From contig PMIH01000030.1 in NCBI GenBank assembly GCA_003158255.1, positions 34,728 to 87,492 on the forward strand: DNA of 52,765 nucleotides, written 5' to 3'. How positions within the stretch are numbered: the first letter of the stretch is position 1; the number at the start of each line of letters is the position of its first letter. The notes beneath the pieces are model-generated. The model had not been told where the DNA came from, did not search any database, and saw nothing but the letters and a program-made list of their open reading frames with translations. Both the position numbers and the translations under genes were made by a program. The DNA comes from Rhodocyclaceae bacterium. Lineage in GTDB: Bacteria > Pseudomonadota > Gammaproteobacteria > Burkholderiales > Rhodocyclaceae. Of the stretch, positions 8,805 through 25,198 are shown one piece after another.

Positions 8805-11042
8805 TCAGAACTTCAGGCTCAGTTTCGCCACCAGGGTGCGCGGCGCACCGGGGTAGTAGATAGCGCCGTTGGCGGTGGTATTCACTTCGTTCGTGACGAT
8901 CTGGCCGATATACTTGCGATCGAATGCGTTCAGCAGCGCAAGCGACGCATCCCAGTTGCCCCAGGAACTCTTGTGGCCATGGCTCAGCGTCAGGTCGGCG
9001 GTGAAGTAGCCGGGAACCCGCTCCGTGTATGTGGTCGTCGCCCAGCGCGGCCCGATGTATTGCAGGACAGGCGCCACCGTCACTCCTTGAAGACTCCAGG
9101 CCACGCCCAGGTTTGCCATCGTCTTTGGCACGTCGGGCAACTGCTTGCCGTTCACCGATAGCGGCGCATTGCCCGCGATATGCACGTCTTCGACGAAATA
9201 GGATCGGCTGTACGAGTAGGCGCCGAACACCCGCAAGATTTCGCTCGGTGTCCAGCCGGCCGCCAGCTGCAAGCCATCGGCTTTGGTATTGCCGACGTTC
9301 TCGGGAAGGACCAACTTGGTCGCCGGGTCGTAGACGCTCACCATCTTGTTGTGGGAGCGTGCGTAATACACCGTGGGATCGAGGTAGACGGTCCCGTACC
9401 GCAGGTGGCCGCCTAGGTCGAGGTTGGTGCTCAGTTCCGGACGAATTTGATCCCAGGTGCTTTGGGATTGACTGGACACGAAAACCGACAAAGCCGGTGC
9501 GCCGATGTTGCGTCCCAGGCTGGCGTGAACTTCCGCCGCCGGGCTGAATTCGTAGCTGAGGCCGATCTGCGGCAGCCAATAACCGTGGGATCGCCCGTCG
9601 ACGCTCTTGCTCGGATCCAGCGTCGCCCGTGCCAAGGCATCATCGGCCGAAACATCCCATGAGGCGCTATTGGTGTTCGTCGTTTTGTAGACATCGATGC
9701 TGGGCAACTTCTCCCACGCGTAGCGGGTACCTCCCTGAACCGTGATGGCATCGAAACGCCGCTGGCCGGTCAGGTAGAAGTTCTGGAACTCGTAGCGGTC
9801 CGCCACCTTGTCCAACAGGCTCCATTGCTGGAAGACCAGATTGCCGCCTGTCACCGAGTATTGCTTGCGCGTCGTCGGCGGCCCTGGCGGCTCGGAGGAC
9901 GTCCACGAATAGCCGAGCTTGATGTCGGTCTCCGCGAGCAGGGTACGCAACTCGCCGGTAAGTCCGTAGACCGAGTGGTCGATCAACCATTTCTGTACCT
10001 GGGTCGCCGAACCGCCAGCGTAGAGGTAGTAACCTTCCTCCGTCGTGTAGAAAGGCTTGAAGGCAAATGATGTCTGCGGCGAGAACGTATATTCAGCCTC
10101 GGCCAGCAGCGCCTGATTACGGAAGTCCTGGCGGTTATAGTTGTAGTGGTCGGAAGAAGCCGGATTATTGGAATAGTCGTAGCTGTTGTAGGCACCCAGA
10201 TTGGTCGCCTGAGCAAAAGTGAGGGGCTTATAGTTGTTCTGGGCTTGATCATTCTGCGCAAAGATCAGTTTCAGCCTGAGATTGTCGAACGCTTGCGCCA
10301 GCGCAACCTCGGCGTTGTCTCGGCTGGAAGGTGCCTTGCCAAAGCCGCGCCATTTGTTGGCCGACGTGTCCGAGGCCGAAACGAATAGCGCGGTGCCGGT
10401 GCTGAGAACCCCAGTGTCGAGGCGGGCAAAATAGCGTTGGAAATTTTCGCTGCCGAAACTGGCTGAAACCTCGCGCCTGGCCTCGGGACGAGGCCAAAGC
10501 AGTTCGCTATCAAGCGCACCAAAAGTGTTGAACAAGCCGCCGCGATCCGCCGCCACCACCCCTTCTGCGATGGAGACGTCGGCCAGATTTTCCTTGTCGA
10601 AGAGGAACAGGCTGCCAGGGCCAGGGCCGGGACCGCCGAGAGGAACACCATCGACCGTGCCCGTCGTGCCGTGCATACTGAGTTCTCCCCGCACACGTAT
10701 GCCCTTTTGGCCGCCCTGCATGTTGTTGAGGCCATAGGCATCAACGTTGGTCTCCATCACGCCGGGAACCAAGGCCACCGAGGTGTATGGGTTCGCCCCG
10801 CCGGGCCTATCGAAAAGACGCAGGGCTTCGCCACCAACCCGATAGACCGTATTCGGGCTGCCACGATCCAGCCGAATCCAGTCTGCTTCTTGTGGTGCCG
10901 GGGCAGTCACGATAACTGTGCCCAGGGTCTTGTCGTCCGCCGTGTCGTCCGCGTATCCGGTCCCGGTACAAAAAACAAAAGTGCTGGACAGGCCTGCCGT
11001 AAGCCATTTGTGCAATGCCCGCTTGTTCAAGCGCTGAATCAT
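8805..11042 (-). CDS. TonB-dependent outer-membrane receptor
   Basis: 745-aa ORF with a signal peptide, a plug domain and the C-terminal LVAKLSLKF. It is the first gene of a co-directional, tightly packed gene string running to the left window edge. Confidence 0.85.
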   Translation of the reverse strand: MIQRLNKRALHKWLTAGLSSTFVFCTGTGYADDTADDKTLGTVIVTAPAPQEADWIRLDRGSPNTVYRVGGEALRLFDRPGGANPYTSVALVPGVMETNVDAYGLNNMQGGQKGIRVRGELSMHGTTGTVDGVPLGGPGPGPGSLFLFDKENLADVSIAEGVVAADRGGLFNTFGALDSELLWPRPEARREVSASFGSENFQRYFARLDTGVLSTGTALFVSASDTSANKWRGFGKAPSSRDNAEVALAQAFDNLRLKLIFAQNDQAQNNYKPLTFAQATNLGAYNSYDYSNNPASSDHYNYNRQDFRNQALLAEAEYTFSPQTSFAFKPFYTTEEGYYLYAGGSATQVQKWLIDHSVYGLTGELRTLLAETDIKLGYSWTSSEPPGPPTTRKQYSVTGGNLVFQQWSLLDKVADRYEFQNFYLTGQRRFDAITVQGGTRYAWEKLPSIDVYKTTNTNSASWDVSADDALARATLDPSKSVDGRSHGYWLPQIGLSYEFSPAAEVHASLGRNIGAPALSVFVSSQSQSTWDQIRPELSTNLDLGGHLRYGTVYLDPTVYYARSHNKMVSVYDPATKLVLPENVGNTKADGLQLAAGWTPSEILRVFGAYSYSRSYFVEDVHIAGNAPLSVNGKQLPDVPKTMANLGVAWSLQGVTVAPVLQYIGPRWATTTYTERVPGYFTADLTLSHGHKSSWGNWDASLALLNAFDRKYIGQIVTNEVNTTANGAIYYPGAPRTLVAKLSLKF

Positions 11043-11144
11043 CGAATTTCCCCTTTTCCAAAACTGCCAGACTCTCCCTGAAGAATCAGGACTCCCTATA
11101 TGGCCGCATATATACCGACAACCACATGACCATATTTGCGTGAT

Positions 11145-11160
11145 GGCAAAACCCGTGCCA
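11145..11160 (-). promoter_or_regulatory. sigma-54 (-24/-12) promoter for the TonB/ABC operon
   Basis: The minus strand reads TGGCACGGGTTTTGCC. It has exact GG-N10-GC spacing and is near-consensus. It lies about 100 nt upstream of the receptor ATG at 11042. Confidence 0.6.
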
Positions 11161-11214
11161 AAAGCCCTACTGGCGCTATTTAAGGGATAACAGACTCAAC
11201 TGGCAATTCGATAT

Positions 11215-11228
11215 GTACGGAAGTGTAC
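11215..11228. promoter_or_regulatory. GTAC-N6-GTAC dyad (VnfA-type enhancer box)
   Basis: GTACGGAAGTGTAC. It sits about 55 nt upstream of the minus-strand sigma-54 promoter and about 100 nt upstream of the vnfA sigma-54 promoter. It matches the dyad I recall for A. vinelandii VnfA-dependent promoters. Confidence 0.55.
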
Positions 11229-11324
11229 AACGTTTGTCGCAATTCCCTCATCAAGTACTCCGGAACAACGTCAAACATCGCCGCCGAGCCGCAATCGACT
11301 GAATTTCCGTAATCTGACGGCGCA

Positions 11325-11340
11325 TGGCGCATCTTTTGCT
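11325..11340 (+). promoter_or_regulatory. sigma-54 promoter for vnfA
   Basis: TGGCGCATCTTTTGCT with GG-N10-GC spacing, 50 nt upstream of the vnfA ATG. Confidence 0.55.
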
Positions 11341-11347
11341 CATGGCA

Positions 11348-11372
11348 TCGTTATAGCGTGCGATATATATCG
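11348..11372. promoter_or_regulatory. Mo-box-like element (candidate ModE operator) over the vnfA transcription start region
   Basis: TCGTTATA-N10-TATATCG. The same pattern, TCGCTATA-N10-TATATCG, recurs at 33145-33169 in the mop/modE intergenic region. Both are AT-rich islands in GC-rich DNA. Confidence 0.5.
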
Positions 11373-11389
11373 CCACCCGAAAGACAGCC

Positions 11390-12955
11390 ATGAATTCTTC
11401 CGTACCTCACCTTTGCGAATGCGACCTCGGCGAATGCCGCACCGATCTATTGCCCTTGCTCTACGAGATGAGCCGGATCGTCACCGAGAGCAGCAACCTG
11501 TCGGCGACGCTGCAAATCCTGATTCGGCTGATGAAGCGTCACATGAAGGTGATCCGCGGCATGGTTACGCTTTACGACACCGACTCGGGAAAGATCTTCA
11601 TCCACGAGAGCTTCGGCCTGACCGAGGAGGAGGCGGCACGCGGCGTCTACTTCCTTGGCGAAGGCATTACCGGCCGTGCGGTCGAGACCGGTCAGACCAT
11701 CGTCGTACCGCGCATCAGCGACGAACCGGAATTTCTCAACCGAACCGGCAGCCGCAACGATCTTGCCGATTCGAAACTGTCATTCCTCTGCGTACCGATC
11801 ATGCGGGGCCGCAAGGTGATGGGCACCATCAGTGCGGAGCGCATCTACGACAACAGCCGCCTGCTCAAGCTGGACGTCGAGATCCTGTCCATCCTGGCCA
11901 CCACCACTGCCCAAGCGGTCGAGCTCTACCTGCTTGAAAACGTGCGCAAGGTGGAACTCGAAGCCGAAAACCGCCGACTGCTCAACGCGCTGAAGGAAAA
12001 GTTCAAGCCGGACAACATCATCGGCAATTCGAAGCCGATGCAGGAGGTGTACAAACTGATCGAGAAGGTGCGGCGCTCCCGCACTACGGTGCTGATCCTG
12101 GGCGAGAGCGGGGTCGGCAAGGAGCGAGTGGCGCACGCCATCCACTACAACAGCCCCAATAGCGCAGGCCCGTTCGTCATCTTCAATTGCGCCGCTCTGC
12201 CGGAGACCGTCATCGAAAGCGAACTGTTCGGCCACGAGAAAGGCTCCTTTACGGGCGCAACCAACCTGCGCAAGGGCCGCTTCGAGGAAGCGGACGGCGG
12301 TACCATCTTTCTCGACGAGATCGGCGAACTGTCGCTGTCGATGCAGGCGAAACTCCTGCGGGTGCTGCAAGAGAAGTCCTTCGAGCGGGTCGGCGGCAAT
12401 ACCACCATCAAGGTGGAACTGCGGGTACTCGCCGCCACCAACCGCGACCTGCCCGACATGGTCGCCAACGGCTCTTTCCGCGAGGACCTGTATTACCGCC
12501 TCAACGTCTTTCCGATCACCATTCCGCCGCTACGCGAACGCGGCAACGACATCGTCGCGTTGGCCGACTACTTCGTCGCCAAATTTGCCAGCGAAATGGG
12601 TATCGACGTTCACCGCATTTCCACCCCGGCACTGAACATGCTGCTCTGCTATCACTGGCCCGGCAACGTGCGCGAACTGGAGAACGTCATCGAGCGTGCG
12701 ATGCTGCTCGCCGACGACGGCGTGATTCATGGCTACAACCTGCCACCTTCCCTGCAAACGCCAGTGGTGTCGGAAATTGCCGGCGGCGGAAGTCTTGAAG
12801 CGCGCCTCGGCACCGTCGAATACGAGATGATCGTCGAGGCGCTGAAGCTCCATCACGGCAACATGACCGATGCGGCCGCCCAACTCGGCCTGACGCGGCG
12901 CATCCTCGGTCTGCGCATGTCGAAGTACAAGCTCGACCACAAGGAGTATCGCTGA
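11390..12955 (+). CDS. vnfA: sigma-54-dependent transcriptional activator VnfA
   Basis: 521 aa with an N-terminal CECDLGEC (CxCxxxxC) motif characteristic of VnfA. It has a GAF-like domain, an AAA+ core (GESGVGKE, GAFTGA-type ESELFGHEKGSFTGA) and a C-terminal HTH. Confidence 0.9.
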   Translation: MNSSVPHLCECDLGECRTDLLPLLYEMSRIVTESSNLSATLQILIRLMKRHMKVIRGMVTLYDTDSGKIFIHESFGLTEEEAARGVYFLGEGITGRAVETGQTIVVPRISDEPEFLNRTGSRNDLADSKLSFLCVPIMRGRKVMGTISAERIYDNSRLLKLDVEILSILATTTAQAVELYLLENVRKVELEAENRRLLNALKEKFKPDNIIGNSKPMQEVYKLIEKVRRSRTTVLILGESGVGKERVAHAIHYNSPNSAGPFVIFNCAALPETVIESELFGHEKGSFTGATNLRKGRFEEADGGTIFLDEIGELSLSMQAKLLRVLQEKSFERVGGNTTIKVELRVLAATNRDLPDMVANGSFREDLYYRLNVFPITIPPLRERGNDIVALADYFVAKFASEMGIDVHRISTPALNMLLCYHWPGNVRELENVIERAMLLADDGVIHGYNLPPSLQTPVVSEIAGGGSLEARLGTVEYEMIVEALKLHHGNMTDAAAQLGLTRRILGLRMSKYKLDHKEYR

Positions 12956-12963
12956 ATGAATTC

Positions 12964-12977
12964 GTACGGAAACGTGC
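12964..12977. promoter_or_regulatory. degenerate VnfA-type box
   Basis: GTACGGAAACGTGC, with one mismatch in the right half. It lies 41 nt upstream of the next box. Confidence 0.4.
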
Positions 12978-13004
12978 GTCCCTTTCTGCGAATGGTTCCG
13001 AACC

Positions 13005-13018
13005 GTACGGAAATGTAC
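13005..13018. promoter_or_regulatory. GTAC-N6-GTAC dyad (VnfA-type box)
   Basis: GTACGGAAATGTAC, about 25 nt upstream of the sigma-54 element at 13041. Confidence 0.55.
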
Positions 13019-13040
13019 GCAAGAACCGGCTCTGATGGCA

Positions 13041-13056
13041 TGGTCCGATGCTTGCA
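13041..13056 (+). promoter_or_regulatory. sigma-54 promoter for the Cys-rich ORF-vnfENX-nfu operon
   Basis: TGGTCCGATGCTTGCA with GG-N10-GC spacing and a good -12 TTGCA. It is 38 nt upstream of the ATG at 13094. Confidence 0.5.
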
Positions 13057-13093: not shown

Positions 13094-13495
13094 ATGCCAA
13101 ACGACATCACCGCGAATACCGCCGCGACGATCGCCACATGCAAGATCTGCACGATACGGCTGGAGCAGATCTGCTACCGGCGTGCCTGGTGGTTTCGTGT
13201 CTTCCGCGAGGTGCTTGCCACGGGCATACGTATCTTTGCGCTCGCCTACGGCATGCGTGCAAGCGAGCATCCGCCGCGTTCGCCCATGTGCCACCGCTGC
13301 CTGCGCTTTCGCAAAAACGCGCTCAAGGCGCGCTCACCGCTCTTCACCTGGCTCGACGGCTACCTCAATCCAATCTTCAATCGCGTCCGCGATTCGCTGC
13401 TGACGCCCGAAGAACTCGAACAGGCTCGCGATCTGGCGAGCCGTGCCGCCACGACTGACTTTTACGACAAACCCGTCGCCACGCGCTCGCACTGA
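13094..13495 (+). CDS. hypothetical Cys-rich protein (two CxxC pairs, one amphipathic/hydrophobic segment)
   Basis: Trimmed to the ATG at 13094, which is preceded by GAGGAG; 133 aa. Contains CKIC ... CHRC and WWFRVFREVLATGIRIFALAYG. It is the first ORF downstream of the sigma-54 promoter and 33 nt before vnfE. I recognise no family. Confidence 0.5.
   Translation: MPNDITANTAATIATCKICTIRLEQICYRRAWWFRVFREVLATGIRIFALAYGMRASEHPPRSPMCHRCLRFRKNALKARSPLFTWLDGYLNPIFNRVRDSLLTPEELEQARDLASRAATTDFYDKPVATRSH
13439..13463 (-). repeat. dispersed 25-bp motif copy
   Basis: Motif strand: AAAAGTCAG TCGT GGCGGCACGGCT. It is antisense to the 3' part of the Cys-rich ORF. Confidence 0.6.
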
Positions 13496-13528
13496 CCCGC
13501 CACCCGACCATTCGCTACGGAGATTCCC

Positions 13529-14929
13529 ATGAGCGCCAAAGACATCCAGGTCCTGTTCGACGAGCCCGCCTGCGACCACAACCAGGGCGCCAAGACCGGC
13601 TGTGCCAAGGGTCAGCCAGGCGCCACGCAGGGCGGCTGTGCCTTCGATGGCGCCCAGATCGCGCTGCTGCCAATTGCCGACGCCGCCCACATCGTGCACG
13701 GTCCCATCGGCTGTGCCGGTAGCTCGTGGGATGCGCGCGGCACGCGCTCCTCGGGGCCGACGCTCTATCGCACCGGAATGACCACCGATCTCACCAACAT
13801 CGACGTCGTCATGGGCCAGGGCGAGAAGCGCCTGTTCTTCTCGATCAAGGAAGCCATCGACAACTACCAGCCTGCCGCGATATTCATCTACGCCACCTGC
13901 GTCACCGCCATGCAGGGCGACGACCTCAATGCCGTGGCCAAAGCCGCGACCGAACGCTGGGGCGTGCCGGTAATCCCGGTCGATTGCGCCGGCTTCTATG
14001 GCGGCAAGAACTTCGGCAACCGCATCGGCGGCGACGCACTGTTGAAGCACGTCATCGGCACCCGCGAACCCGAGACGGTGTCGCCCGAGGCCGAGCGTCC
14101 CGGCATTCGCGTGCACGACATCAACCTGATCGGCGAGTACAACATCGTCGGCGAATTCTGGCAGGTGGCGCCTCTGTTCGATGAACTCGGGCTACGCATT
14201 CTGTGCACCCTCTCGGGCGACTCGCGCTTCCGCGAGGTTCAGAGCATGCATCGCGCCGAGGTCAACATGGTGGTCTGCTCCAAGGCCATGCTCAATGTCG
14301 CCCGCCAACTTCAAGAGAACCATGGCACGCCCTTCTTCGAAGGCAGCTTTTACGGTATCGCCGACACCTCGCAGGCACTGCGCGACTTTGCCTGCCTGCT
14401 CGGCGACGGCGAACTCGCTGACCGTACCGAAGCCCTGATTGCGCGCGAGGAAGCAGCGGCACACGCCACGCTCGCGCCCTGGCGCAAGCGCCTCACCGGC
14501 AAGCGCGCGCTGGTGTTCTCGGGCGGAGTGAAGTCCTGGTCAGCGGTCTCGGCCTTGCAGGACCTCGGCATGACGGTCGTCGCCACGGGCACCGAGAAAT
14601 CCACCGAGGAGGACCGTGCACGCATTCGCGAACTGATGGGTGAAGACGCGCGCATGATCGACGACAACGACCAGGGTGCGCTGATGGCAACCTGCCGAGA
14701 AGTCGGCGCCGACATCCTGATCGCGGGTGGCCGCTACCTGCAAGCCTCGCTCAAGTGCGGCCTGCCCTTCCTCGACATCAACCACGAACGCGACTTCGGC
14801 TACGCCAGCTACACCGGCATCGTCGAGCTTGCCCGGCAGCTCTGCTACGCGATCGAAAACCCGATCTGGCCGCAGCTTCATCGTCCCGCGCCGTGGCCGC
14901 AAATGCATGTAGCGGCCAGCGCTGTCTAA
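13529..14929 (+). CDS. vnfE: FeV-cofactor biosynthesis scaffold subunit VnfE (NifE homologue)
   Basis: 466 aa with motifs [34 protein letters not shown] and VVCSKAM. Position follows vnfA, as in known vnf clusters. Confidence 0.85.
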
Positions 14930-14939
14930 GGAGACCACC

Positions 14940-16316: not shown

Positions 16317-16327
16317 GGAGCTTCATT

Positions 16328-16879
16328 ATGCTCAAGATCGCATTTGCCACGACCGACAAAACGCACGTCGATCTGCACTTCGGCGCCGGCGAACGCTTCG
16401 TCATCTACGACGTTGCACCCGGCGAAGCCGAATTGGTCGCCGAGGGAGAATTCGTCCCGGCCGTCATGAAAGGCGAAAACCGATTCAAGTCGCTGGCCAA
16501 GGGCGAGATGATCGTCCCCGGCGAGGAAGCGCAAGCCAAACCGGGCGAACTTGACAAGCCACCGGAGGACAAGGTCGTCGCCAAACTGGAATTCCTGCAA
16601 GGCTGCGCCGCCGTCTATGCCGCCTCGATCGGCACCTCGTCGATCAAGCGTCTGATGGCGGCCGGCATTCAGCCCATCATCGTCGACAACGGCCACGACA
16701 TCGTCGACCTTCTAAACGAAGTCAGCCTCGCCCTCGCCCAGGGCGGCCTGGCCTGGGTCGAAAAAGCCAAGGCAAAACCAAAAGCGGCCAACCGCTTCGA
16801 CACCATGATGGCCGAAGGCTGGCACGACGGCGAGGGAACGCGCCACAGCCTGATTACCTCGATCGACGATCTGGATTGA
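16328..16879 (+). CDS. vnfX: NifX-family cofactor carrier VnfX
   Basis: 183 aa. MLKIAFATTDKTHVDLHFGAGERFVIYDV is a NifX/NafY-type N-terminus. It follows vnfEN. Confidence 0.7.
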   Translation: MLKIAFATTDKTHVDLHFGAGERFVIYDVAPGEAELVAEGEFVPAVMKGENRFKSLAKGEMIVPGEEAQAKPGELDKPPEDKVVAKLEFLQGCAAVYAASIGTSSIKRLMAAGIQPIIVDNGHDIVDLLNEVSLALAQGGLAWVEKAKAKPKAANRFDTMMAEGWHDGEGTRHSLITSIDDLD

Positions 16880-16881
16880 TC

Positions 16882-17148
16882 ATGAGCGAAGAAGATGTCA
16901 TCCCCGAGGTTGCCCGCAACGCCGAACCTCACCGGGAACTGATCGCCGCCACGATCGAGTCGCTGCGACCCGTCGTTCAGAAAGACGGCGGCGACCTCGA
17001 ACTCGTCAAAATAGAACGCGACCGCGTTTTGGTGCGCCTCTCGGGCGCGTGCACGACCTGCGCCTTCGCCGGGCATACGCTAGGCGGCGTGCGTCGGCGA
17101 CTGGTGGAGGTGCTGGGCTTTCCGGTGCGGGTGGTGCCAGCCACCTAA
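16882..17148 (+). CDS. Nfu / NifU C-terminal-domain Fe-S assembly protein
   Basis: ATG at 16882 (the ORF track uses TTG at 16876). LVKIERDRVLVRLSGACTTCAFAG carries the Nfu CxxC motif. Confidence 0.65.
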   Translation: MSEEDVIPEVARNAEPHRELIAATIESLRPVVQKDGGDLELVKIERDRVLVRLSGACTTCAFAGHTLGGVRRRLVEVLGFPVRVVPAT

Positions 17149-18522: not shown

Positions 18523-18524
18523 GA

Positions 18525-19619
18525 TCAATTGTTCATGTCGTTGCGCCGCAGTCCATCCGGTCCCTTGCCGGCAAGCATCAGATCGAGTTCGCGCTCGCTG
18601 AGGTGGTAGCGATAGAAGCGGGCGTAGTAGTCACGGAATTCCTGCCGCAGATCGAGATCGGGGAACAGTTGCGGATACAGTTCCTTCGCCAGGTAGAGCA
18701 TCAGCAGCACGCCCTCGGTGGACCCGTCCCAGTAGAAGACGCCTTCGGGCAGCTCATGCACTTGACCGGTCCGAACGGCGGTGACCTGCGCCCAGCGCGG
18801 ATTACCGGTGACCAGTTCGGCGGAATACATGCGGCCGATGTTGATGACCTGGGGATCCCATTTCAGAATCTCCTCGATGGAAACCTCGCCCTGGCCAACG
18901 AAGGAATGTTGCTTCACCACCATGTCCGCCCCGGCGATGACGCCGTACCAGAAGGTGTGGGACGACAGGCCATGGGTGCGCGTGGCGCTTGGCCCGCGCA
19001 CATGGAAGAGTCGGACCTTCTTTTCCTCCGGTATCCGGTCTGTGCGCGAACGCACCATGGCCACCATCCGGTCGTGATAGGCGCACCACTCCTCGGCCCT
19101 GGCCTCGTACTCCGGACCGAGCACTCGGCCGAAGAGGCGCAGCATCCGCTTTCGGGATTCGACGAAAGCCTCGATGCTGTCGATCTTGTCCGTCCCCATG
19201 GTTTGCGAGACCAGGACAGGCACGCCCATCCGCGCGAGTGTGTCGATCTTGACCGGGTCCGGGTAGCCGTAGGTGCGGAACACGACGTCCACTCGCTGTT
19301 TCAACAGCTCCTCGGTGTTCGGGTTGGAAGCCAGTTGCTGGATACCATCTACGGCGGGATTGGTCTGCCGCATCCAGGGCGCATTGGTCCGGATCATCAT
19401 GGCGATTCGGTCGCTGGCGCCCAGCAGAAACAGCTTTTCATAGCACAGCACCTCCAGGCAAGCGATGCGGCCAACCCGCGCCGGGATCGCCACTTGGTTC
19501 CCGGCCATGTCGATCACTGACCTTGCGGCGGGCGGTGTTTTCGGCACCGGCGGTTCCCCGCAACCACCGGCCAGGAACATCGCGGCCAGAAGCGGAGCGA
19601 AGCGCAATCGACATGCCAT
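18525..19619 (-). CDS. lipoprotein, Peripla_BP_2 (FhuD/BtuF) class periplasmic binding protein
   Basis: Trimmed to the ATG at 19619. MACRLRFAPLLAAMFLAGGCGEPP looks like a lipoprotein signal with a lipobox-like LAGGC. The body resembles class-8 binders. Its stop is 2 nt before the NifD/E-like start. Confidence 0.75.
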   Translation of the reverse strand: MACRLRFAPLLAAMFLAGGCGEPPVPKTPPAARSVIDMAGNQVAIPARVGRIACLEVLCYEKLFLLGASDRIAMMIRTNAPWMRQTNPAVDGIQQLASNPNTEELLKQRVDVVFRTYGYPDPVKIDTLARMGVPVLVSQTMGTDKIDSIEAFVESRKRMLRLFGRVLGPEYEARAEEWCAYHDRMVAMVRSRTDRIPEEKKVRLFHVRGPSATRTHGLSSHTFWYGVIAGADMVVKQHSFVGQGEVSIEEILKWDPQVINIGRMYSAELVTGNPRWAQVTAVRTGQVHELPEGVFYWDGSTEGVLLMLYLAKELYPQLFPDLDLRQEFRDYYARFYRYHLSERELDLMLAGKGPDGLRRNDMNN

Positions 19620-19624
19620 CGATG

Positions 19625-21796
19625 TCACAGCTCCGCCTTGACCGTGAACGAAACCACCCGCGGTGCTCCGAGGGTCAGCCCGTCGCCGGAACGGTAGTAG
19701 GTCCAATACGCCTTATCGAACAAGTTGCTGACATTCAGTTTGAAAGTCAGCTTGCGGCCTGCGGCCCTGGTCTGGTAGCGCACGCCGATATCGTAGGTCG
19801 TGGCGCCGTCCAGGTAGTCGGTATTGGCGGAATCCACCGGACGCCTGCCCGAGTAATTCGCCCCACCGGTCGCCGTCAGGCCGGGCAACCCAGTCAGCGC
19901 ATATTCCAGATACAAACGGGCCTGTTGCTCCGGAACGTTGACCGGGGTCTTGCCTTCGAGAGCGGTGTTGTTCTTTGCCTTGGCGACATGGGCGTCTTGC
20001 ACGGTGAGCCCGCCCACTACCGTCAGCCGATCACTGAGCTTGCCGGTGGCAGTGAATTCCAGCCCTTGGTGGATTTCCCGTCCATTCTGCTTATAGACAT
20101 TGTCCGACGGGTCCGTGTATTCGTTGACCTTGTCGATACGGAACAGGGCGGCGGTCAGATCCATCGTGCCCGCGCGGGACTTGACGCCGACCTCGTACTG
20201 ATCGCTCACGCTCGGGGACAGGAGCGTATTGGCGTTGGCCGCCGTGGTCGGCGCCATGCCGCCGTTCGCCAGCCCTTCCATGTAGGAAACGTATAGCGTC
20301 GTTTCGGAAAGCGGTTTGTACATCAAGGCGACGCTGGGCGTGACCTTGCTCTGGTCATAATCCTTGGCGGAAAGCGCGGTACCGCTCCCCCAACGGTCGA
20401 GTTTTATCGACGCGCGGCTGACACCCAACAGGGCCGACCACGCATCACCGAATACCACGCGATCACCCAGTACCCAGTTATCGAAATGCTGCTGGTACCA
20501 GACGTTGGTCGGCCCGATGGCGAGGCCGGGATTGGCGTATCCGACTGTGTTGTCTATGTTGGAGGTACCCAACACCTTGGACACATCGTCGCCCCGCGTA
20601 TAGAGGAAGCTGGTCCCGGTATAGCCAAACGTCACCGTGTGCGCCAGCGACCCAGTATGGAACGCGGCATCCAACAGGGCGTAGGCGGAGCGGGTCTTTT
20701 CCGTCTGGCGGGTGCTGCCGATCGCCTTCTCGCTGTAGTTGCCCGCGTTGTCGGTCAACGTGGCGTTGACGAACAGGTAGTCCCGCCACATGTCGCCATA
20801 ACGGTAAGCGGAACGGAAGCTAAAGGTATCGTTCAATGCCGATTCGAGTCCCGCACCCACCACAGTCTTCTCGGCTTTGTTGTAGGTCCAGTCCTGACCG
20901 TATTGGGTGTTCGCGCTGAACCGCGACGCATCGGGCACGAAGATGCCACCGGCCGGATTGACGTTGATGAAGCTGACCAGCCCCGACATGTCCAGATCCT
21001 GATGCCAGGCGTCCAGCCACAGGCGGGTATCACGGGTCGGCTTGAAATCGACCACGCCGGAAATTAGGTGTCGCTGCTGTTTGCTGCCATCGATGTAGCC
21101 GTGGCCATCCTCGCCATAAGCATTGACCCGATACCCCCAACGATCGTCGTCGCCCACGTGGCCGCCAGCGTCGCCATGCAAGTAGTTGATGCCCCCTCCG
21201 TATTGGCCGATGGCTACACTGGCGTAGGCGTCTGGAGTGGGCTGCTTGCTCACGTAATTGACCGCACCGCCCAGAGCCGAAAAACCATACAGGAAGCCGG
21301 ACAAACCGTTCAGAACTTCTATCCGCTCCACGTTTTCCAGCGGCACGAAGGTAAAGCTACGATCCACCAATCCGTCGCGCAGGTCGGTCTGATCGGCCGC
21401 CGTGAAACCGCGAACCATCACCCGCGACATGGAGCTATAGCCATTCGACTCCATCAGTGTCGCCACCGTCGGATTGGTCTTCAGCGCGTCGGAGACCGTG
21501 TGGGCGCTACGGTTCTCGATCAACTCGCCCGAAGTGACGTTGAGGGAATACGGCGTGTCCTTGAGCGGCATGCGCCCCAACGGTCCTGCGGTTGCCGTCG
21601 TATTGCGATAGCCGCCGTCCGCCGATCCCTCGCTGGCGTCCAGATGTGAAACGACCTGGACGACAGGCAGTTCGGGGGCATCGGCCACAACCGCAGACTC
21701 CACTGCCCACGCAGCGCTTGCGGGCAATACGGCGACAACCATCAACGTGCAAGCGGAATTGCATTGCCGCGACCAAACCGGATATTCCATTTTCAT
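19625..21796 (-). CDS. TonB-dependent siderophore receptor (FhuA/FhuE-like)
   Basis: Trimmed to the ATG at 21796 (MKMEYPVWSRQCNSACTLMVVAVLPASAAWA, a signal peptide). It has a plug (RVMVRGF, ERIEVLNGLSGFLYG) and the C-terminal FTVKAEL. The ORF-track 5' extension overlaps the promoter. Confidence 0.85.
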   Translation of the reverse strand: MKMEYPVWSRQCNSACTLMVVAVLPASAAWAVESAVVADAPELPVVQVVSHLDASEGSADGGYRNTTATAGPLGRMPLKDTPYSLNVTSGELIENRSAHTVSDALKTNPTVATLMESNGYSSMSRVMVRGFTAADQTDLRDGLVDRSFTFVPLENVERIEVLNGLSGFLYGFSALGGAVNYVSKQPTPDAYASVAIGQYGGGINYLHGDAGGHVGDDDRWGYRVNAYGEDGHGYIDGSKQQRHLISGVVDFKPTRDTRLWLDAWHQDLDMSGLVSFINVNPAGGIFVPDASRFSANTQYGQDWTYNKAEKTVVGAGLESALNDTFSFRSAYRYGDMWRDYLFVNATLTDNAGNYSEKAIGSTRQTEKTRSAYALLDAAFHTGSLAHTVTFGYTGTSFLYTRGDDVSKVLGTSNIDNTVGYANPGLAIGPTNVWYQQHFDNWVLGDRVVFGDAWSALLGVSRASIKLDRWGSGTALSAKDYDQSKVTPSVALMYKPLSETTLYVSYMEGLANGGMAPTTAANANTLLSPSVSDQYEVGVKSRAGTMDLTAALFRIDKVNEYTDPSDNVYKQNGREIHQGLEFTATGKLSDRLTVVGGLTVQDAHVAKAKNNTALEGKTPVNVPEQQARLYLEYALTGLPGLTATGGANYSGRRPVDSANTDYLDGATTYDIGVRYQTRAAGRKLTFKLNVSNLFDKAYWTYYRSGDGLTLGAPRVVSFTVKAEL

Positions 21797-21849: not shown

Positions 21850-21865
21850 CGCAAGCGCCATACCA
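21850..21865 (-). promoter_or_regulatory. sigma-54 promoter for the receptor-binding protein-NifD/E-like operon
   Basis: The minus strand reads TGGTATGGCGCTTGCG with GG-N10-GC spacing. It is 54 nt upstream of the ATG at 21796. Confidence 0.5.
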
Positions 21866-21897
21866 GATCGATTCTGCGGCTCCCGCGTTACGCCGCT

Positions 21898-21911
21898 GTA
21901 CGAACGATACC
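21898..21911. promoter_or_regulatory. degenerate GTAC-N6 box
   Basis: GTACGAACGATACC, with a weak right half. It lies about 35 nt upstream of the minus-strand -24 element. Confidence 0.3.
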
Positions 21912-21990
21912 GTTTGCACCCCGATGTCCACGGTCACCCCAAATCACGACGAGGCCAGCGTTCCGGAATGTCACGCGCCGTTGGCCGAAT

Positions 21991-22004
21991 GTACGAACCG
22001 GAAC
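21991..22004. promoter_or_regulatory. GTAC-N6-GAAC box shared by divergent sigma-54 promoters
   Basis: GTACGAACCGGAAC. It is about 80 nt upstream of the plus-strand promoter at 22082 and about 130 nt upstream of the minus-strand promoter at 21865. Confidence 0.45.
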
Positions 22005-22081: not shown

Positions 22082-22097
22082 TGGCCCGAAGCTTGCG
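22082..22097 (+). promoter_or_regulatory. sigma-54 promoter for the signal-less PhnD-like gene
   Basis: TGGCCCGAAGCTTGCG with GG-N10-GC spacing. The first in-frame ATG after the predicted start site is at 22140. Confidence 0.55.
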
Positions 22098-22139
22098 AGT
22101 GAGGCAGTGACCAGTTCACTTTGCGTAACCCGAGCAATC

Positions 22140-24013
<1,874 letters not shown>

Positions 24014-24033
24014 TCGATCCGGGAGACGCCAGC

Positions 24034-24234
24034 ATGGCCATGACCATCATCGCCGACGAATGCACCGCCTGCGGCGACTGCAAGCCAGTCTGTCCGACCA
24101 AGTCCATTCTCGTGCGCAAAGGCGTTTTCACCATCGATGCCAGAACCTGCACCGAGTGTGAAGACGACTCCGACGAACCTCAATGCATCCTTGTCTGCCC
24201 CGTGGACAACTGCATCGTGCCGTTGGCGGCCTGA
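24034..24234 (+). CDS. small 2x[4Fe-4S]-type ferredoxin (vnfH-associated)
   Basis: 66 aa. CTACGDCKPVCP and CTEC...CILVCP are two ferredoxin Cys clusters. Its position directly after vnfH matches the vnfH-Fd arrangement known in Azotobacter. Confidence 0.8.
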   Translation: MAMTIIADECTACGDCKPVCPTKSILVRKGVFTIDARTCTECEDDSDEPQCILVCPVDNCIVPLAA

Positions 24235-24238
24235 CGCC

Positions 24239-24952
24239 ATGACCCAAAGTCGACTCCCCGACGCCATCGCCCTGCGCATCGGCGTTGCCACCCGCAGCCT
24301 CCCCGGCGTCGGGGTCGGTCAGTTGCTGGAAGTACTGATCGACGCCGTCGGGCTCCCGCTCACGGCGGCCAAGCTCGACCGCCTGACGCTCGGGCGGTTG
24401 CGCAAGGCGTCACGGGGTACCCTGGCTGCCGTACCCCACTTCCCCCTGTTGAAGGCCCTCGCCTACCTCAACGGCGCGAGCACAATCGCTACCATCGATT
24501 CGCCGCTACCCGAGGTTGAAAGCTATTGCGACGGCGGAATGCCGCACTCGATACGCGTCGCGGTCGCATCGAGCGACGGCGAGTGTCTCGACGCCGGCTT
24601 CGCGACCGCACGCCGCTTCCTGATCTACCAACTCTCGGCAAGCGATATCCGCCTCGTTGCGATCCGCGAGGCTCCCGAGAAATCCGGCAAACATGGCTGG
24701 CGCCAGCGTTTGCCCCTGCTGGCCGACTGCCCCGTCGTGTACGCAAAGACGATCGCCACGCCAACCGCCGCCGCATTGGTCGCGGCTCGCATTCATCCGA
24801 TACAGACCTGGGTTCCCGGACCCGCGCGCGAGGCTTTGTCCAGCCTGCAACAAACGCTGCGCCGCCCGCCGCCCTGGCTGGCCAAGGCCTGCGGCCGGCG
24901 GCACCAGCCCCGCTTGCACGAGCCTACCGAAGTACTCGCGCTCAGCGCCTGA
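24239..24952 (+). CDS. NifX/NafY-family domain protein with unknown N-terminal domain of about 100 aa
   Basis: ATG at 24239, 237 aa. The C-terminal half, IRVAVASSDGECLDAGFATARRFLIYQL...LADCPVVYAKTIATPTAAALVAARIHP, is NifX-like. Confidence 0.6.
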   Translation: MTQSRLPDAIALRIGVATRSLPGVGVGQLLEVLIDAVGLPLTAAKLDRLTLGRLRKASRGTLAAVPHFPLLKALAYLNGASTIATIDSPLPEVESYCDGGMPHSIRVAVASSDGECLDAGFATARRFLIYQLSASDIRLVAIREAPEKSGKHGWRQRLPLLADCPVVYAKTIATPTAAALVAARIHPIQTWVPGPAREALSSLQQTLRRPPPWLAKACGRRHQPRLHEPTEVLALSA

Positions 24953-24978
24953 GCGTCACCTCCGTGCCACAGATCCTG

Positions 24979-24999
24979 CCTGCGCGCTTCGCGCGCGGG
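24979..24999 (+). terminator. GC-rich hairpin, possible intrinsic terminator after the vnfH operon
   Basis: CCTGCGCGC-TTC-GCGCGCGGG forms a 9-bp stem with one G-U pair. It is followed by TGATTCTTC, which is only a weak U-tract. Confidence 0.35.
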
Positions 25000-25079
25000 T
25001 GATTCTTCGCGCACCGCATTCATCATCGGAAGCCAACTCGGCAATCGACTGCACGGCAGCGAACATCCTCGGATCATTC

Positions 25080-25093
25080 GTACTTCCGCGAAC
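25080..25093. promoter_or_regulatory. GTAC-N6-GAAC box upstream of vnfD
   Basis: GTACTTCCGCGAAC sits within the larger dyad ATTCGTAC-N6-GAACGAAT. It is about 90 nt upstream of the -24 element. A weaker GCACGGCAGCGAAC lies at 25051. Confidence 0.45.
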
Positions 25094-25182
25094 GAATCCA
25101 GCGGACCTTTCGCAACGAACAAAGCGCTCTTGACGCCTGCCGATCAGCTCCCAGTGCGGCATTGAAGGTAATCAGGCCAAGC

Positions 25183-25198
25183 TGGCACGCTCGCTGCT
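25183..25198 (+). promoter_or_regulatory. sigma-54 promoter for vnfDGK
   Basis: TGGCACGCTCGCTGCT with GG-N10-GC spacing, 72 nt upstream of the vnfD ATG. Confidence 0.6.

What the first reader, a model, noticed from the sequence alone, without database searches (positions are those of the whole stretch)
8805..25198. A VnfA-type box / sigma-54 regulon architecture that extends beyond vnf genes to TonB-dependent uptake operons
**Promoters.** Seven GG-N10-GC promoters lie in the vnf region, at 11160 (minus strand), 11325, 13041, 21865 (minus strand), 22082, 23062 and 25183.

**Upstream boxes.** Each promoter has one or two 14-bp boxes 25-130 nt upstream:
- 11215: GTACGGAAGTGTAC
- 12964: GTACGGAAACGTGC
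- 13005: GTACGGAAATGTAC
- 21898: GTACGAACGATACC
- 21991: GTACGAACCGGAAC
- 22942: GTACGCACCGGAAC
- 22972: GTACATCCACGAAC
- 25080: GTACTTCCGCGAAC

GTAC-N6-GTAC is the dyad I recall being assigned to VnfA in Azotobacter vinelandii. In this window the structural-gene promoters use a GTAC-N6-GAAC variant.

**The new point.** The same promoter-plus-box arrangement heads two TonB-receptor operons (8805-11042 and downstream; 19625-21796 and downstream) and a PhnD-like gene. These would therefore be co-regulated with V-nitrogenase. Receptors for vanadium-metallophore complexes have not, to my knowledge, been identified, and these are explicit candidates. The box at 11215 sits between the divergent receptor and vnfA promoters, which suggests autoregulation.
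Basis: partly seen in the sequence, partly recalled or inferred. Interest (0 to 1): 0.7.

Follow-up and report, generated by a model that had tools for sequence, protein, structure and literature searches.

The report
VnfA/sigma-54 regulon with metal-uptake operons
The vanadium-nitrogenase gene cluster of an uncultured bacterium carries seven sigma-54 promoters with VnfA-type activator sites, two of which head outer-membrane receptor operons, but this arrangement was already shown by experiment in Azotobacter vinelandii in 2022, so it is a new example of a known regulon.

Summary
All seven -24/-12 promoters and all eight boxes are at the stated coordinates. A scoring matrix built only from published A. 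vinelandii VnfA1 ChIP-seq sites finds a box of at least 11 bits 30-200 nt upstream of exactly those seven promoters (0.22 expected by chance).

Corrections to the boxes:
- Box 21898 fails as drawn. Only its GTAC half is conserved.
- Box 22942 is weak.
- With these, box pairs sit 31 bp apart, as in Azotobacter.

The "new point" is not new. Appia-Ayme et al. 2022 (PMC9542535) showed that VnfA1 binds and activates three TonB-dependent receptor operons, and reported the GT(T/A)C-N6-GTAC motif. One of those operons ends in a NifD-like gene, as does the window's operon at 17149-21796.

Additions from this work:
- The PhnD-like gene has no signal peptide, so it resembles the cytoplasmic regulator VnfZ, not a transporter subunit.
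- Two ModE-type Mo-boxes lie just downstream of the divergent vnfA and receptor-1 promoters, which predicts repression by molybdenum.
- Relatives of receptor 1 elsewhere sit beside modE/modA and use NifA-type sites. The box at 11214 fits both the NifA and VnfA consensus, so VnfA autoregulation is not established.
- In Azotobacter these receptor operons are on only when both Mo and V are absent, so simple co-expression with V-nitrogenase is doubtful.

The parts
224..8799 (-). Distal genes of the receptor-1 operon: periplasmic binding protein 7759-8799, FecCD permease 6669-7727, ABC ATPase 5884-6681, methyltransferase 5267-5896, luciferase-like oxygenase 4206-5270, globin 3607-4227, a second TonB receptor 1545-3518, solute-binding protein 224-1534
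   Evidence: Gene calls and Pfam hits on the identical contig, shifted by 1389; NCBIfam. Co-transcription is inferred from tight spacing on one strand.
8805..11042 (-). TonB-dependent receptor 1 (745 aa), member of a small distinct family
   Evidence: The signal peptide is visible. Homologues sit next to modE/modA/modD in L092 and L094.
11094..11117 (.). Mo-box 1 (ModE-type dyad CCCTATA-N10-TATACCG) in the leader of the receptor-1 operon, about +18 to +41
   Evidence: 3 sites in the window against 0.01 expected. Conserved in L096.
11146..11160 (-). Sigma-54 promoter of the receptor-1 operon, TGGCACGGGTTTTGC
   Evidence: 0 mismatches to the consensus. Conserved in L096.
11214..11229 (.). Shared upstream activator site TGTACGGAAGTGTACA between the divergent promoters. 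It fits both VnfA (GTAC-N6-GTAC) and NifA (TGT-N10-ACA).
   Evidence: 18.0 bits with the A. vinelandii VnfA1 matrix. TGT-N10-ACA match. Conserved in L096.
11325..11339 (+). Sigma-54 promoter of vnfA, TGGCGCATCTTTTGC
   Evidence: The TGGC.C and TTTTGC elements are conserved in L096.
11349..11372 (.). Mo-box 2 (CGTTATA-N10-TATATCG) over the predicted vnfA transcription start
   Evidence: 0 mismatches. Conserved in L096. A matching box lies upstream of vnfA in L007.
11390..12955 (+). vnfA: GAF, AAA+ and HTH domains, sigma-54 enhancer-binding protein with the C-X-C-X4-C motif
12963..13018 (.). VnfA boxes upstream of the vnfE operon: 12963 CGTACGGAAACGTGC (11.9 bits), 12994 GGTTCCGAACCGTAC (9.1), 13004 CGTACGGAAATGTAC (19.0). 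The pair 12963/12994 is 31 bp apart and conserved in L096.
13041..13055 (+). Sigma-54 promoter TGGTCCGATGCTTGC for orf133-vnfE-vnfN-vnfX-nifU-like
   Evidence: Identical in L096.
13094..17148 (+). orf133 (13094-13495, no family), vnfE 13529-14929, vnfN 14940-16316, nifX-like 16328-16879, NifU C-terminal-like 16882-17148
17149..21796 (-). Receptor-2 operon: TonB siderophore-type receptor 19625-21796, periplasmic binding protein 18525-19619, NifD-like protein 17149-18522
   Evidence: The same three-gene module occurs in Azomonas (L010), L007, L009 and L096. PMC9542535 describes Avin_39890 to Avin_39870 as a VnfA1-dependent operon of a TonB receptor and putative ABC transport components ending in a NifD-like gene.
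21851..21865 (-). Sigma-54 promoter of the receptor-2 operon, TGGTATGGCGCTTGC
   Evidence: L096 has TGGCACACGGCTTGC at the same place.
21884..21901 (.). Degenerate promoter-proximal site. Only the GTAC at 21898-21901 is conserved.
   Evidence: Below 8 bits in the window. The equivalent site in L096 is CGTACCCACGGGTAC at 14.5 bits.
21959..22004 (.). Pair of VnfA boxes shared by the divergent receptor-2 and vnfZ-like promoters, 31 bp apart: 21959 CGTTCCGGAATGTCA (13.0 bits) and 21990 TGTACGAACCGGAAC (11.2/11.6)
   Evidence: 21990 differs by one base from the Avin_00450 site TGTACGGACCGGAAC.
22082..22096 (+). Sigma-54 promoter of the vnfZ-like gene, TGGCCCGAAGCTTGC
22140..23048 (+). PhnD-like protein without a signal peptide (VnfZ-like, cytoplasmic paralogue of VodA)
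   Evidence: The VnfZ description is in PMC9542535.
22941..22986 (.). vnfH upstream boxes, 31 bp apart, inside the 3' end of the vnfZ-like gene: 22941 AGTACGCACCGGAAC (8.3 bits) and 22972 (minus strand) CGTTCGTGGATGTAC (15.1)
   Evidence: In L096 the substitutions fall only in the N6 spacer.
23062..23076 (+). Sigma-54 promoter of vnfH, TGGCACAGCCCTTGC
   Evidence: 0 mismatches.
23126..24952 (+). vnfH (23126-24013) and a 271-aa protein with a C-terminal NifX-like domain (24137-24952)
25080..25094 (.). vnfD upstream box, minus strand CGTTCGCGGAAGTAC (15.2 bits)
25183..25197 (+). Sigma-54 promoter of vnfDGK, TGGCACGCTCGCTGC
25270..32455 (+). vnfD 25270-26697, vnfG 26698-27036, vnfK 27065-28486, orf297 28523-29416, nifX-like 29457-29993, then vanadate-type ABC transporter genes: ATPase 30007-30750, signal-peptide-bearing PhnD-like binding protein about 30753-31625, permease 31622-32455
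   Evidence: A single transcript from 25183 is inferred from the spacing only.
32689..34132 (.). mop (two TOBE domains, 32689-33117, minus strand), Mo-box 3 at 33146-33169, modE (HTH_1 plus TOBE, 33308-34132, plus strand): the likely source of the repressor for Mo-boxes 1 and 2

Best explanation
The window holds the vanadium-nitrogenase cluster of an uncultured proteobacterium.

**Promoters and activator.** Transcription runs from seven sigma-54 (-24/-12) promoters. Each is served by upstream sites of the type GT(A/T)C-N6-G(T/A)AC, often as pairs 31 bp apart. The locally encoded VnfA most likely binds these sites.

**What is in the regulon.** The vnf structural and cofactor genes; a cytoplasmic VnfZ-like vanadate-sensor paralogue; and two TonB-dependent uptake operons. 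The operon at 17149-21796 (receptor, periplasmic binding protein, NifD-like protein) appears to be the counterpart of A. vinelandii Avin_39890 to Avin_39870, a proven VnfA1 target.

**Molybdenum control.** ModE-type Mo-boxes sit just downstream of the divergent vnfA and receptor-1 promoters. When Mo is plentiful, ModE (or Mop) should shut off both the activator gene and the receptor-1 operon.

**Predicted behaviour.** When Mo is scarce, vnfA is made and switches on the other promoters. By analogy with Azotobacter, the VnfZ-like protein may tune VnfA according to vanadium supply, so that the uptake operons peak under Mo and V starvation.

**Shown versus inferred.** Shown by sequence analysis: presence, statistics and conservation of the sites, gene identities and gene order. 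Inferred: VnfA and ModE binding, operon boundaries, the expression pattern and the substrates of the receptors.
For: - All seven promoters and all eight boxes are present.
- A matrix built from A. vinelandii ChIP-seq sites finds boxes of at least 11 bits 30-200 nt upstream of exactly these seven promoters: 7 against 0.22 expected.
- Pair spacing is 31 bp at 21959/21990, 22941/22972 and 12963/12994. Azotobacter pairs are spaced 30-31 bp.
- VnfA identity: the C-X-C-X4-C motif, 75-77% identity to Azotobacter and Azomonas VnfA, and the recognition helix LGLTRRILGLRM.
- Comparison with L096, which has the same gene order: in otherwise diverged spacers, the conserved islands are the promoters, the boxes and the Mo-boxes.
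- The same three-gene receptor module with a sigma-54 promoter and boxes occurs in L007, L096, L099, L128 and Azomonas L010.
- Experimental precedent: PMC9542535.
- Mo-box dyad: 3 sites against 0.01 expected, the third in the mop/modE gap. A matching box lies upstream of vnfA in L007.
- No Fur box lies upstream of either receptor.
Against: - There are no expression or binding data for this organism.
- Box 21898 fails and box 22942 is weak.
- vnfD has a single good box.
- Box 11214 also fits the NifA consensus. Receptor-1 homologues elsewhere use NifA-type sites without a VnfA box, so VnfA control of receptor 1 and of vnfA itself is the weakest link.
- Direct comparison with the Avin_39890 protein sequence was not possible. 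Orthology rests on gene order and on 63% identity to the Azomonas homologue.
- In more distant receptor-2 relatives no sigma-54 promoter lies within 450 bp upstream (23 of 27 loci; also Rhodovastum).
Confidence: 0.72

Rival explanations
1. The divergent vnfA and receptor-1 promoters are activated by NifA, encoded elsewhere in the genome, through TGT-N10-ACA at 11214-11229, and not by VnfA. vnfA would then sit in a cascade: nitrogen limitation acts through NifA, Mo status acts through ModE, VnfA is made, and VnfA turns on the remaining vnf promoters. On this reading receptor 1 is a Mo-starvation uptake system of the nif regulon and not a VnfA target.
For: - TGTACGGAAGTGTACA satisfies TGT-N10-ACA.
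- Receptor-1 family operons in Rhodocyclus tenuis (L092), L094 and an Azonexus MAG (L095) have TGT-N10-ACA sites and a sigma-54 promoter, and in L094 and L095 also a Mo-box, with no VnfA box of 9 bits or more close to the promoter. They sit beside modE/modA/modD, nifB or nifZ.
- A sigma-54 promoter for vnfA needs some activator before any VnfA exists.
- Overlapping NifA, VnfA and AnfA use of one site is reported for the A. vinelandii nifB promoter (cited in PMC7294313).
Against: - The site is also a perfect GTAC-N6-GTAC and the second-best VnfA matrix hit in the window, at 18.0 bits.
- L096 has three GTAC half-sites in register at this position, which looks VnfA-like.
- No NifA is encoded in the window. 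The second enhancer-binding protein at 50479-52413 is not NifA.
- The two readings do not exclude each other.
Confidence: 0.3
2. The receptor operons import ordinary ferric siderophores. They are switched on with the alternative nitrogenases only to meet the extra iron demand, and have no role in vanadium or molybdenum uptake.
For: - Receptor 2 passes the TonB-dependent siderophore receptor model at 301 bits against a cut-off of 223.5.
- Its partners are Peripla_BP_2, FecCD and ABC components typical of iron-siderophore or cobalamin uptake.
- In A. vinelandii the homologous operons peak under Fe-only conditions.
- Receptor-2 relatives also lie next to anf-type genes (VnfG-like 39-40%, VnfD-like 56%) in L103, L105 and L106.
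Against: - There is no Fur box upstream of either receptor (best match 9-10 of 19).
- Mo-box control of receptor 1 and its modE/modA neighbourhood in other genomes.
- In Azotobacter the operons are repressed by vanadium, not iron, which fits Mo/V scavenging at least as well.
Confidence: 0.3
3. The boxes upstream of the receptor operons are chance matches in AT-poorer spacers, and the receptor promoters are not under VnfA control at all.
For: - The motif is short and degenerate.
- TGGCAC-N5-TTGC with up to 2 mismatches is not enriched in the window overall.
- One strong box (50426, 15.3 bits) lies inside a restriction-modification gene and is probably chance.
Against: - The joint promoter-plus-box count is 7 against 0.22 expected.
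- The sites are conserved in otherwise diverged spacers of L096.
- The arrangement recurs in L007, L099, L128 and Azomonas.
- There is experimental precedent for a similarly organised operon ending in a NifD-like gene.
Confidence: 0.05

Closest known systems
VnfA1 regulon of Azotobacter vinelandii (Appia-Ayme et al. 2022, Mol Microbiol 118:105, PMC9542535; binding site first defined by Woodley et al. 1996)
   Same: - Sigma-54 promoters with GT(T/A)C-N6-GTAC sites, often as pairs about 30 bp apart.
- Targets include vnfH, vnfDGK and vnfE, a signal-peptide-less PhnD-like gene (vnfZ), divergent promoter pairs sharing one set of sites, and TonB-dependent receptor operons, one of which ends in a NifD-like gene.
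- vnfA itself carries ModE sites.
   Different: - Here the receptor operons lie inside the vnf cluster instead of being scattered on the chromosome.
- The window shows only one VnfA, with no vnfA3 next to the vnfZ-like gene.
- vnfA has a sigma-54 promoter with an upstream site. No such promoter is described for the A. vinelandii vnfU-vnfA1 operon in the sections I read.
- Receptor 1 belongs to a family with no named Azotobacter member among the hits, and its leader carries a Mo-box.
ModE/Mop repression at Mo-boxes (E. coli modA operator; R. capsulatus MopA/MopB at anfA, mopA and morA; A. vinelandii ModE1/ModE2 at vnfA1 and anfA)
   Same: - The dyad CGNTATA-N10-TATANCG lies over or just downstream of the promoter of the alternative-nitrogenase activator gene.
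- A further copy lies in the mop/modE gap.
- modE and mop are encoded nearby.
   Different: - A second Mo-box lies in the leader of a TonB-dependent receptor operon.
- The repressed promoters are sigma-54 type.
VnfZ / VodA (cytoplasmic and periplasmic PhnD-like vanadate-binding paralogues of A. vinelandii)
   Same: - Two paralogues, 62% identical to each other.
- One has a signal peptide and sits in an ABC transporter operon. The other has none and has its own sigma-54 promoter with VnfA boxes.
   Different: The vnfZ-like gene is not translationally coupled to a VnfA paralogue. It stands alone just upstream of vnfH, and the vnfH activator sites lie inside its 3' end.

Membership tests
VnfA-dependent sigma-54 promoter (as defined in A. 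vinelandii) | -24 GG / -12 GC element close to TGGCAC-N5-TTGC, at a suitable distance upstream of a start codon | tested here: met
   Seven sites, with 0-2 mismatches, lie 40-105 nt upstream of start codons in the correct orientation.
VnfA-dependent sigma-54 promoter (as defined in A. vinelandii) | Upstream site matching GT(T/A)C-N6-GTAC, scored with a matrix from ChIP-seq-derived sites | tested here: met
Every one of the seven promoters has at least one box of 11 bits or more 30-200 nt upstream.
VnfA-dependent sigma-54 promoter (as defined in A. vinelandii) | Two sites about 20 or 30 bp apart (cooperative binding) | tested here: inconclusive
   31-bp pairs occur at vnfE, at receptor-2/vnfZ and at vnfH. 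The vnfA/receptor-1 region has a single box, and vnfD has one good box with only a weak second (9.3 bits).
VnfA-dependent sigma-54 promoter (as defined in A. vinelandii) | A cognate VnfA with the N-terminal Cys motif and a conserved DNA-recognition helix | tested here: met
   CECDLGEC motif, 77% identity to Azotobacter beijerinckii VnfA, helix LGLTRRILGLRM against LGLTRRVLGLRM. That C-X-C-X4-C marks VnfA rests on established knowledge (Nakajima et al. 2010).
VnfA-dependent sigma-54 promoter (as defined in A. vinelandii) | VnfA binding in vivo or in vitro, and loss of transcription in vnfA or rpoN mutants | not testable with these tools
   The organism is uncultured and no expression data are available.
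Avin_39890-39870 type operon (TonB receptor, transport component(s), NifD-like protein) | Gene content and order | tested here: met
   Window 21796 down to 17149. The same three-gene order occurs in Azomonas macrocytogenes L010 and in L007, L009 and L096. The A. vinelandii operon is described; the periplasmic-binding annotation of Avin_39880 appears.
Avin_39890-39870 type operon (TonB receptor, transport component(s), NifD-like protein) | Sequence orthology to the A. vinelandii proteins themselves | not tested
   The A. vinelandii sequences could not be fetched; both genome scans failed. The nearest proxy is 63% identity to the Azomonas receptor.
ModE (Mo-box) operator | Dyad CGNTATA-N10-TATANCG overlapping a promoter or leader, with modE in the genome | tested here: met
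   Sites at 11094, 11349 and 33146: 3 against 0.01 expected. modE lies at 33308-34132 and mop at 32689-33117. The sites are conserved in L096 and L007. Binding itself cannot be tested here.
VnfZ | PhnD/VodA-like fold without an N-terminal signal peptide | tested here: met
   Phosphonate-binding family hit. The protein starts [14 protein letters not shown], directly at the mature domain. The paralogue at about 30753 has MSSQTVRIYFLFFLLALATFVAMAA.
VnfZ | Co-transcribed and translationally coupled with a VnfA paralogue (vnfA3) | tested here: not met
   The next gene downstream is vnfH, which has its own promoter. No second VnfA is adjacent. The protein is therefore called VnfZ-like only.
Fur-regulated ferric-siderophore receptor | Fur box in the promoter region | tested here: not met
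   The best match to the 19-bp Fur consensus is 10/19 upstream of receptor 1 and 9/19 upstream of receptor 2, which is background level.
NifA-dependent promoter | TGT-N10-ACA site upstream of a sigma-54 promoter | tested here: inconclusive
   Met at 11214-11229 in the vnfA/receptor-1 gap and not in the receptor-2/vnfZ gap; the other promoter regions were not scanned for it. The same bases form the VnfA dyad, so the activator cannot be assigned.

The most novel reading that the evidence does not exclude
The two receptor families may be the outer-membrane importers for molybdenum and vanadium (as metallophore complexes or oxyanions) that feed nitrogenase cofactor synthesis. No such importer came up in the papers I searched. 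Receptor 1 would be a Mo-repressed scavenging system: it has a Mo-box leader and modE/modA neighbours in several genomes. The module of receptor 2, a periplasmic binding protein and a NifD/E-like protein would be a conserved accessory of alternative nitrogenases across several bacterial groups. In two metagenomic loci receptor 2 lies directly downstream of vnfDGK on the same strand.
Probability: 0.2. Interest if true: 0.7.

Novelty: new member of a known kind. Interest (0 to 1): 0.35.

Why it matters
The regulatory logic worked out in Azotobacter vinelandii holds outside that genus. That logic is Mo repression through ModE, VnfA activation at sigma-54 promoters, and metal-uptake operons inside the regulon. 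In this uncultured proteobacterium everything is compacted into one cluster.

This gives two practical leads:
- Two defined receptor families can be tested for Mo or V uptake. The families are small enough, and well enough linked to nitrogenase and mod genes, to make knockouts in a cultured relative worthwhile (Azomonas, Rhodocyclus tenuis, Rhodovastum atsumiense).
- The window shows that a single site can satisfy both the NifA and the VnfA consensus. This matters for anyone predicting nitrogenase regulons from sequence.

The central claim itself is not a discovery.

Tried and rejected
- **Genome scan with the NifD-like protein alone** found nothing.
- **Genome scan with an alignment of NifD-like proteins** returned only canonical NifD at 33-35% identity. 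No isolate genome, and no A. vinelandii locus, could therefore be fetched, and the organism stays unidentified. Best named hits are Rhodocyclaceae, Azoarcus and Methylobacter relatives; GC is 62.5%.
- **Sigma-54-like match at 19604-19618(-)** was rejected as a promoter because it overlaps the ATG of the periplasmic-binding-protein gene.
- **Box at 50426 (15.3 bits)** lies in the 3' end of hsdM, next to an enhancer-binding protein that is not NifA. I treated it as chance.
- **Box-like match at 27048** in the vnfG-vnfK gap (10.8 bits) has no promoter nearby and was not pursued.
- **Fur-box search** was negative.
- **Rhodovastum atsumiense (L098)**: the receptor-2 homologue lies in a vnf cluster but has no sigma-54 promoter upstream, so the regulation is not universal.
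- **Papers not held**: Oda et al. 2005 (R. palustris transcriptome) and Hamilton et al. 2011 (A. vinelandii transcriptome). I could not check whether TonB receptors in the R. palustris vnf cluster respond to V-nitrogenase conditions.
- **Literature searches** for an identified V- or Mo-metallophore receptor found none in the held library. That is absence in this library only.

Full report
**1. What is in the window**

The window matches contigs from metagenomes (JGI 3300037334, ENA ERZ27254220) and no isolate genome was found. GC is 62.5%.

Gene content from NCBIfam, Pfam and the gene calls on the identical contig:

- **Minus-strand operon, 11042 down to 224.** TonB-dependent receptor 1 (8805-11042), a periplasmic binding protein, a FecCD permease, an ABC ATPase, a methyltransferase, a luciferase-like oxygenase, a globin, a further TonB receptor and a solute-binding protein.
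- **vnfA and the cofactor genes.** vnfA (11390-12955), an unassigned orf133, vnfE, vnfN, a nifX-like gene and a short NifU-like gene.
- **Minus-strand operon, 21796 down to 17149.** TonB receptor 2, a periplasmic binding protein and a NifD-like protein.
- **Structural genes.** A PhnD-like gene (22140-23048), vnfH (23126-24013), a NifX-domain gene, and vnfDGK (25270-28486).
- **Downstream.** Two more genes, a PhnC/PhnD/PhnE-like ABC transporter (30007-32455), then mop, modE, modA, modD, nifQ, modB and modC.

**2. Check of the observation**

All seven promoters and all eight boxes are present at the stated coordinates.

On their own the promoter patterns are weak evidence:
- TGG-N8-YTGC occurs 36 times against 19 expected.
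- TGGCAC-N5-TTGC with up to two mismatches is not enriched, 74 against 67.

The boxes are strongly enriched. GTAC-N6-GWAC gives 12 matches against 0.81 expected.

To avoid circularity I built a 15-position matrix from 32 VnfA1 sites that MEME extracted from A. vinelandii ChIP-seq peaks (Table S5 of PMC9542535). I then scanned the window with it:
- Hits of at least 12 bits: 8 against 2.0 expected.
- Hits of at least 15 bits: 5 against 0.23 expected.

The joint statistic counts a TGG-N8-YTGC site that has a box of at least 11 bits 30-200 nt upstream on the correct side. It gives 7 against 0.22 expected, with a maximum of 3 in 300 dinucleotide-preserving shuffles.

Corrections:
- Box 21898 scores below 8 bits and box 22942 scores only 8.3.
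- With these included, the pairs 21959/21990, 22941/22972 and 12963/12994 are each 31 bp apart. The common spacing of the Azotobacter pairs is 30-31 bp: vnfH 22/52, vnfD 110/140, Avin_02430 185/215, Avin_39890 454/485.

**3. Conservation**

L096 comes from a different sample. It has the same gene order, with proteins 91-95% identical.

- **vnfA/receptor-1 spacer.** It is much diverged. The conserved islands are the two sigma-54 promoters, the box at 11214 with about 20 nt next to it, and two AT-rich dyads.
- **Upstream of the vnfE operon.** The promoter is identical and boxes 12963 and 12994 are conserved. The TGTAC end of 13004 is not.
- **Upstream of vnfH.** The only substitutions inside the boxes fall in the N6 spacer.
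- **Receptor-2/vnfZ spacer.** The boxes are replaced by different but still matching sequences at the same positions.

Sigma-54 promoters with boxes also precede the receptor-2 homologues in L007, L099 and L128, and in Azomonas macrocytogenes L010.

**4. What is already known**

Appia-Ayme et al. 2022 (PMC9542535) combined ChIP-seq, Cappable-seq and qRT-PCR in A. vinelandii. They showed the following:
- The VnfA1 regulon includes transport operons.
- Three TonB-dependent siderophore receptor genes (Avin_30860, Avin_39890, Avin_47130) are VnfA1-dependent from sigma-54 promoters.
- The Avin_39890 operon ends in a NifD-like gene.
- The binding motif is GT(T/A)C-N6-GTAC, usually as two sites.
- Divergent sigma-54 promoters share sites.

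The Azotobacter vnfH, vnfD and vnfE sites are of the GTTC-N6-GTAC form too. The window's 21990 site, TGTACGAACCGGAAC, differs by one base from the Avin_00450 site.

The window's operon of receptor 2, a binding protein and a NifD-like protein resembles Avin_39890 to Avin_39870. The receptor is 63% identical to the Azomonas homologue, which heads the same three-gene operon.

What the window adds is a further organism in which the same components are packed into one cluster.

**5.

**(a) Expression pattern.** In A. vinelandii the receptor operons are class B. They need VnfA1, VnfA3 and VnfZ, and they are on only when both Mo and V are absent. In the presence of V their transcripts are below 20% of that level. 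This is a starvation response, not co-expression with V-nitrogenase. It is still compatible with a scavenging role.

**(b) The PhnD-like gene.** It begins [14 protein letters not shown], with no signal peptide. A paralogue 62% identical at about 30753-31625 has a clear signal peptide and sits between the ABC ATPase and permease genes. That is the VnfZ/VodA distinction drawn in PMC9542535. The gene is therefore more likely a cytoplasmic vanadate-sensing partner of VnfA than an uptake component. It is not coupled to a VnfA paralogue, so I call it VnfZ-like only.

**(c) Autoregulation.** TGTACGGAAGTGTACA at 11214 is both GTAC-N6-GTAC and TGT-N10-ACA, the NifA consensus. Receptor 1 belongs to a small family: about 80 clusters, with a sharp drop below 36% identity. 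Homologous operons occur in Rhodocyclus tenuis (L092), L094 and an Azonexus MAG (L095). In those loci:
- The operon is preceded by one or two TGT-N10-ACA sites and a sigma-54 promoter.
- L094 and L095 also have a Mo-box just downstream of the promoter.
- No VnfA box lies close to the promoter.
- The operons lie beside modE, modA, modD, TOBE, nifB or nifZ genes.

So NifA activation of receptor 1, and of vnfA, is a live alternative. No NifA is encoded in the window; the enhancer-binding protein at 50479-52413 matches NifA only over its AAA+ domain.

**6. An added layer: molybdenum control**

The dyad CGNTATA-N10-TATANCG, allowing one mismatch, occurs exactly three times in the window against 0.01 expected:
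- At 11094-11117, in the leader of the receptor-1 operon.
- At 11349-11372, over the predicted vnfA start site.
- At 33146-33169, in the mop/modE gap, where a ModE operator is expected.

The first two are conserved in L096. A perfect copy lies between the sigma-54 promoter and vnfA in L007.

ModE sites in the vnfA1 and anfA promoters, and redundant repression by ModE1 and ModE2, are documented for A. vinelandii. The form of the consensus is from my knowledge of ModE operators.

The prediction is that Mo shuts off both vnfA and the receptor-1 operon directly. Neither receptor has a Fur box.

**7. Wider distribution of the receptor-2 family**

A metagenome scan returned 31 loci; 29 were analysed and 27 had usable upstream sequence.
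- Only the closest relatives (about 70% identity or more) keep the sigma-54 promoter with boxes.
- Thirteen of the 27 have nitrogenase-family genes within 6 kb.
- In L101 and L102 the receptor follows vnfA-vnfD-vnfG-vnfK-orf directly on the same strand.
- L110, L111 and L128 carry vnfDG nearby.
- L103, L105 and L106 carry anf-like D and G genes.
- In L106, L109, L112, L115, L118 and L122 the receptor and binding protein are followed by a NifE/NifD-like gene.
- In Rhodovastum atsumiense the homologue lies in a vnf cluster without a sigma-54 promoter.

The physical link to alternative nitrogenases is therefore broader than the VnfA-box regulation. It is not specific to vanadium.

**8. Verdict**

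The mechanism (sigma-54 with VnfA, overlaid by ModE) is well supported by sequence statistics, conservation and a direct experimental precedent. It is untested in this organism.

The claim of novelty fails. This is a new member of a known kind.

The substrates of the receptors remain unknown. Mo or V scavenging, and extra iron supply, both fit the data.

Noticed in passing
window 17149-21796; L106, L109, L112, L115, L118, L122, L007, L009, L010, L096: A three-gene module recurs in many metagenomic and isolate loci: TonB receptor, Peripla_BP_2 binding protein and a nitrogenase-like (NifD/NifE-type) protein. It is often near vnf or anf genes. The NifD-like family is small: few 50%-identity clusters score above 1e-30.
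   Followed up: partly
window 3607-5896; L094 15180-17454; L095 16522-20686: The receptor-1 operon carries a methyltransferase, a luciferase-like oxygenase and a bacterial globin after the ABC transporter genes. The set recurs in L094 and partly in L095. This hints at chemical processing of the imported ligand.
   Followed up: no
window 13094-13495: A 133-aa ORF with a good ribosome-binding site sits between vnfA and vnfE. It has no Pfam or NCBIfam hit. ORFs occupy the same position in L096 (136 aa) and L007 (121 aa).
   Followed up: no
window 22941-23048: The vnfH upstream activator sites lie inside the last ~100 nt of the vnfZ-like coding region. The protein's C-terminal tail has no counterpart in the VodA-like paralogue.
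   Followed up: partly
window 38884-41301: The type I restriction enzyme R subunit appears split. The HSDR_N domain is in a 171-aa ORF and the ResIII/helicase part is in the next 609-aa ORF. This could be a frameshift or a pseudogene. hsdS (41617-42957) and hsdM (48982-50472) are separated by about 6 kb of unassigned ORFs.
   Followed up: no
window 50426-50440 and 52618-52632: A strong VnfA-matrix hit (AGTTCCGCGAGGTAC, 15.3 bits) lies at the end of hsdM, just past the stop of a GAF-AAA+-HTH enhancer-binding protein (50479-52413, minus strand, not NifA). A good sigma-54 match, TGGCACGCTCCCTGC, at 52618 points out of the window.
   Followed up: partly
window 201-219: This is the only good Fur-box-like match in the window (14 of 19, GAATATCAAAATCATTGTC). 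It lies just beyond the 3' end of the last gene of the receptor-1 operon.
   Followed up: no
L101 and L102, 1-8010: In two metagenomic contigs the receptor-2 homologue (66% identity) follows vnfA-vnfD-vnfG-vnfK-orf directly on the same strand. This suggests co-transcription with the V-nitrogenase structural genes.
   Followed up: partly
one search hit list: Receptor-2 homologues of 50-56% identity are named from very different phyla: Methylomusa anaerophila, Spirosoma arboris, Chondrinema litorale, and Fibrobacterota, Elusimicrobia and Verrucomicrobia MAGs. That is unusually high conservation for a TonB receptor.
   Followed up: no
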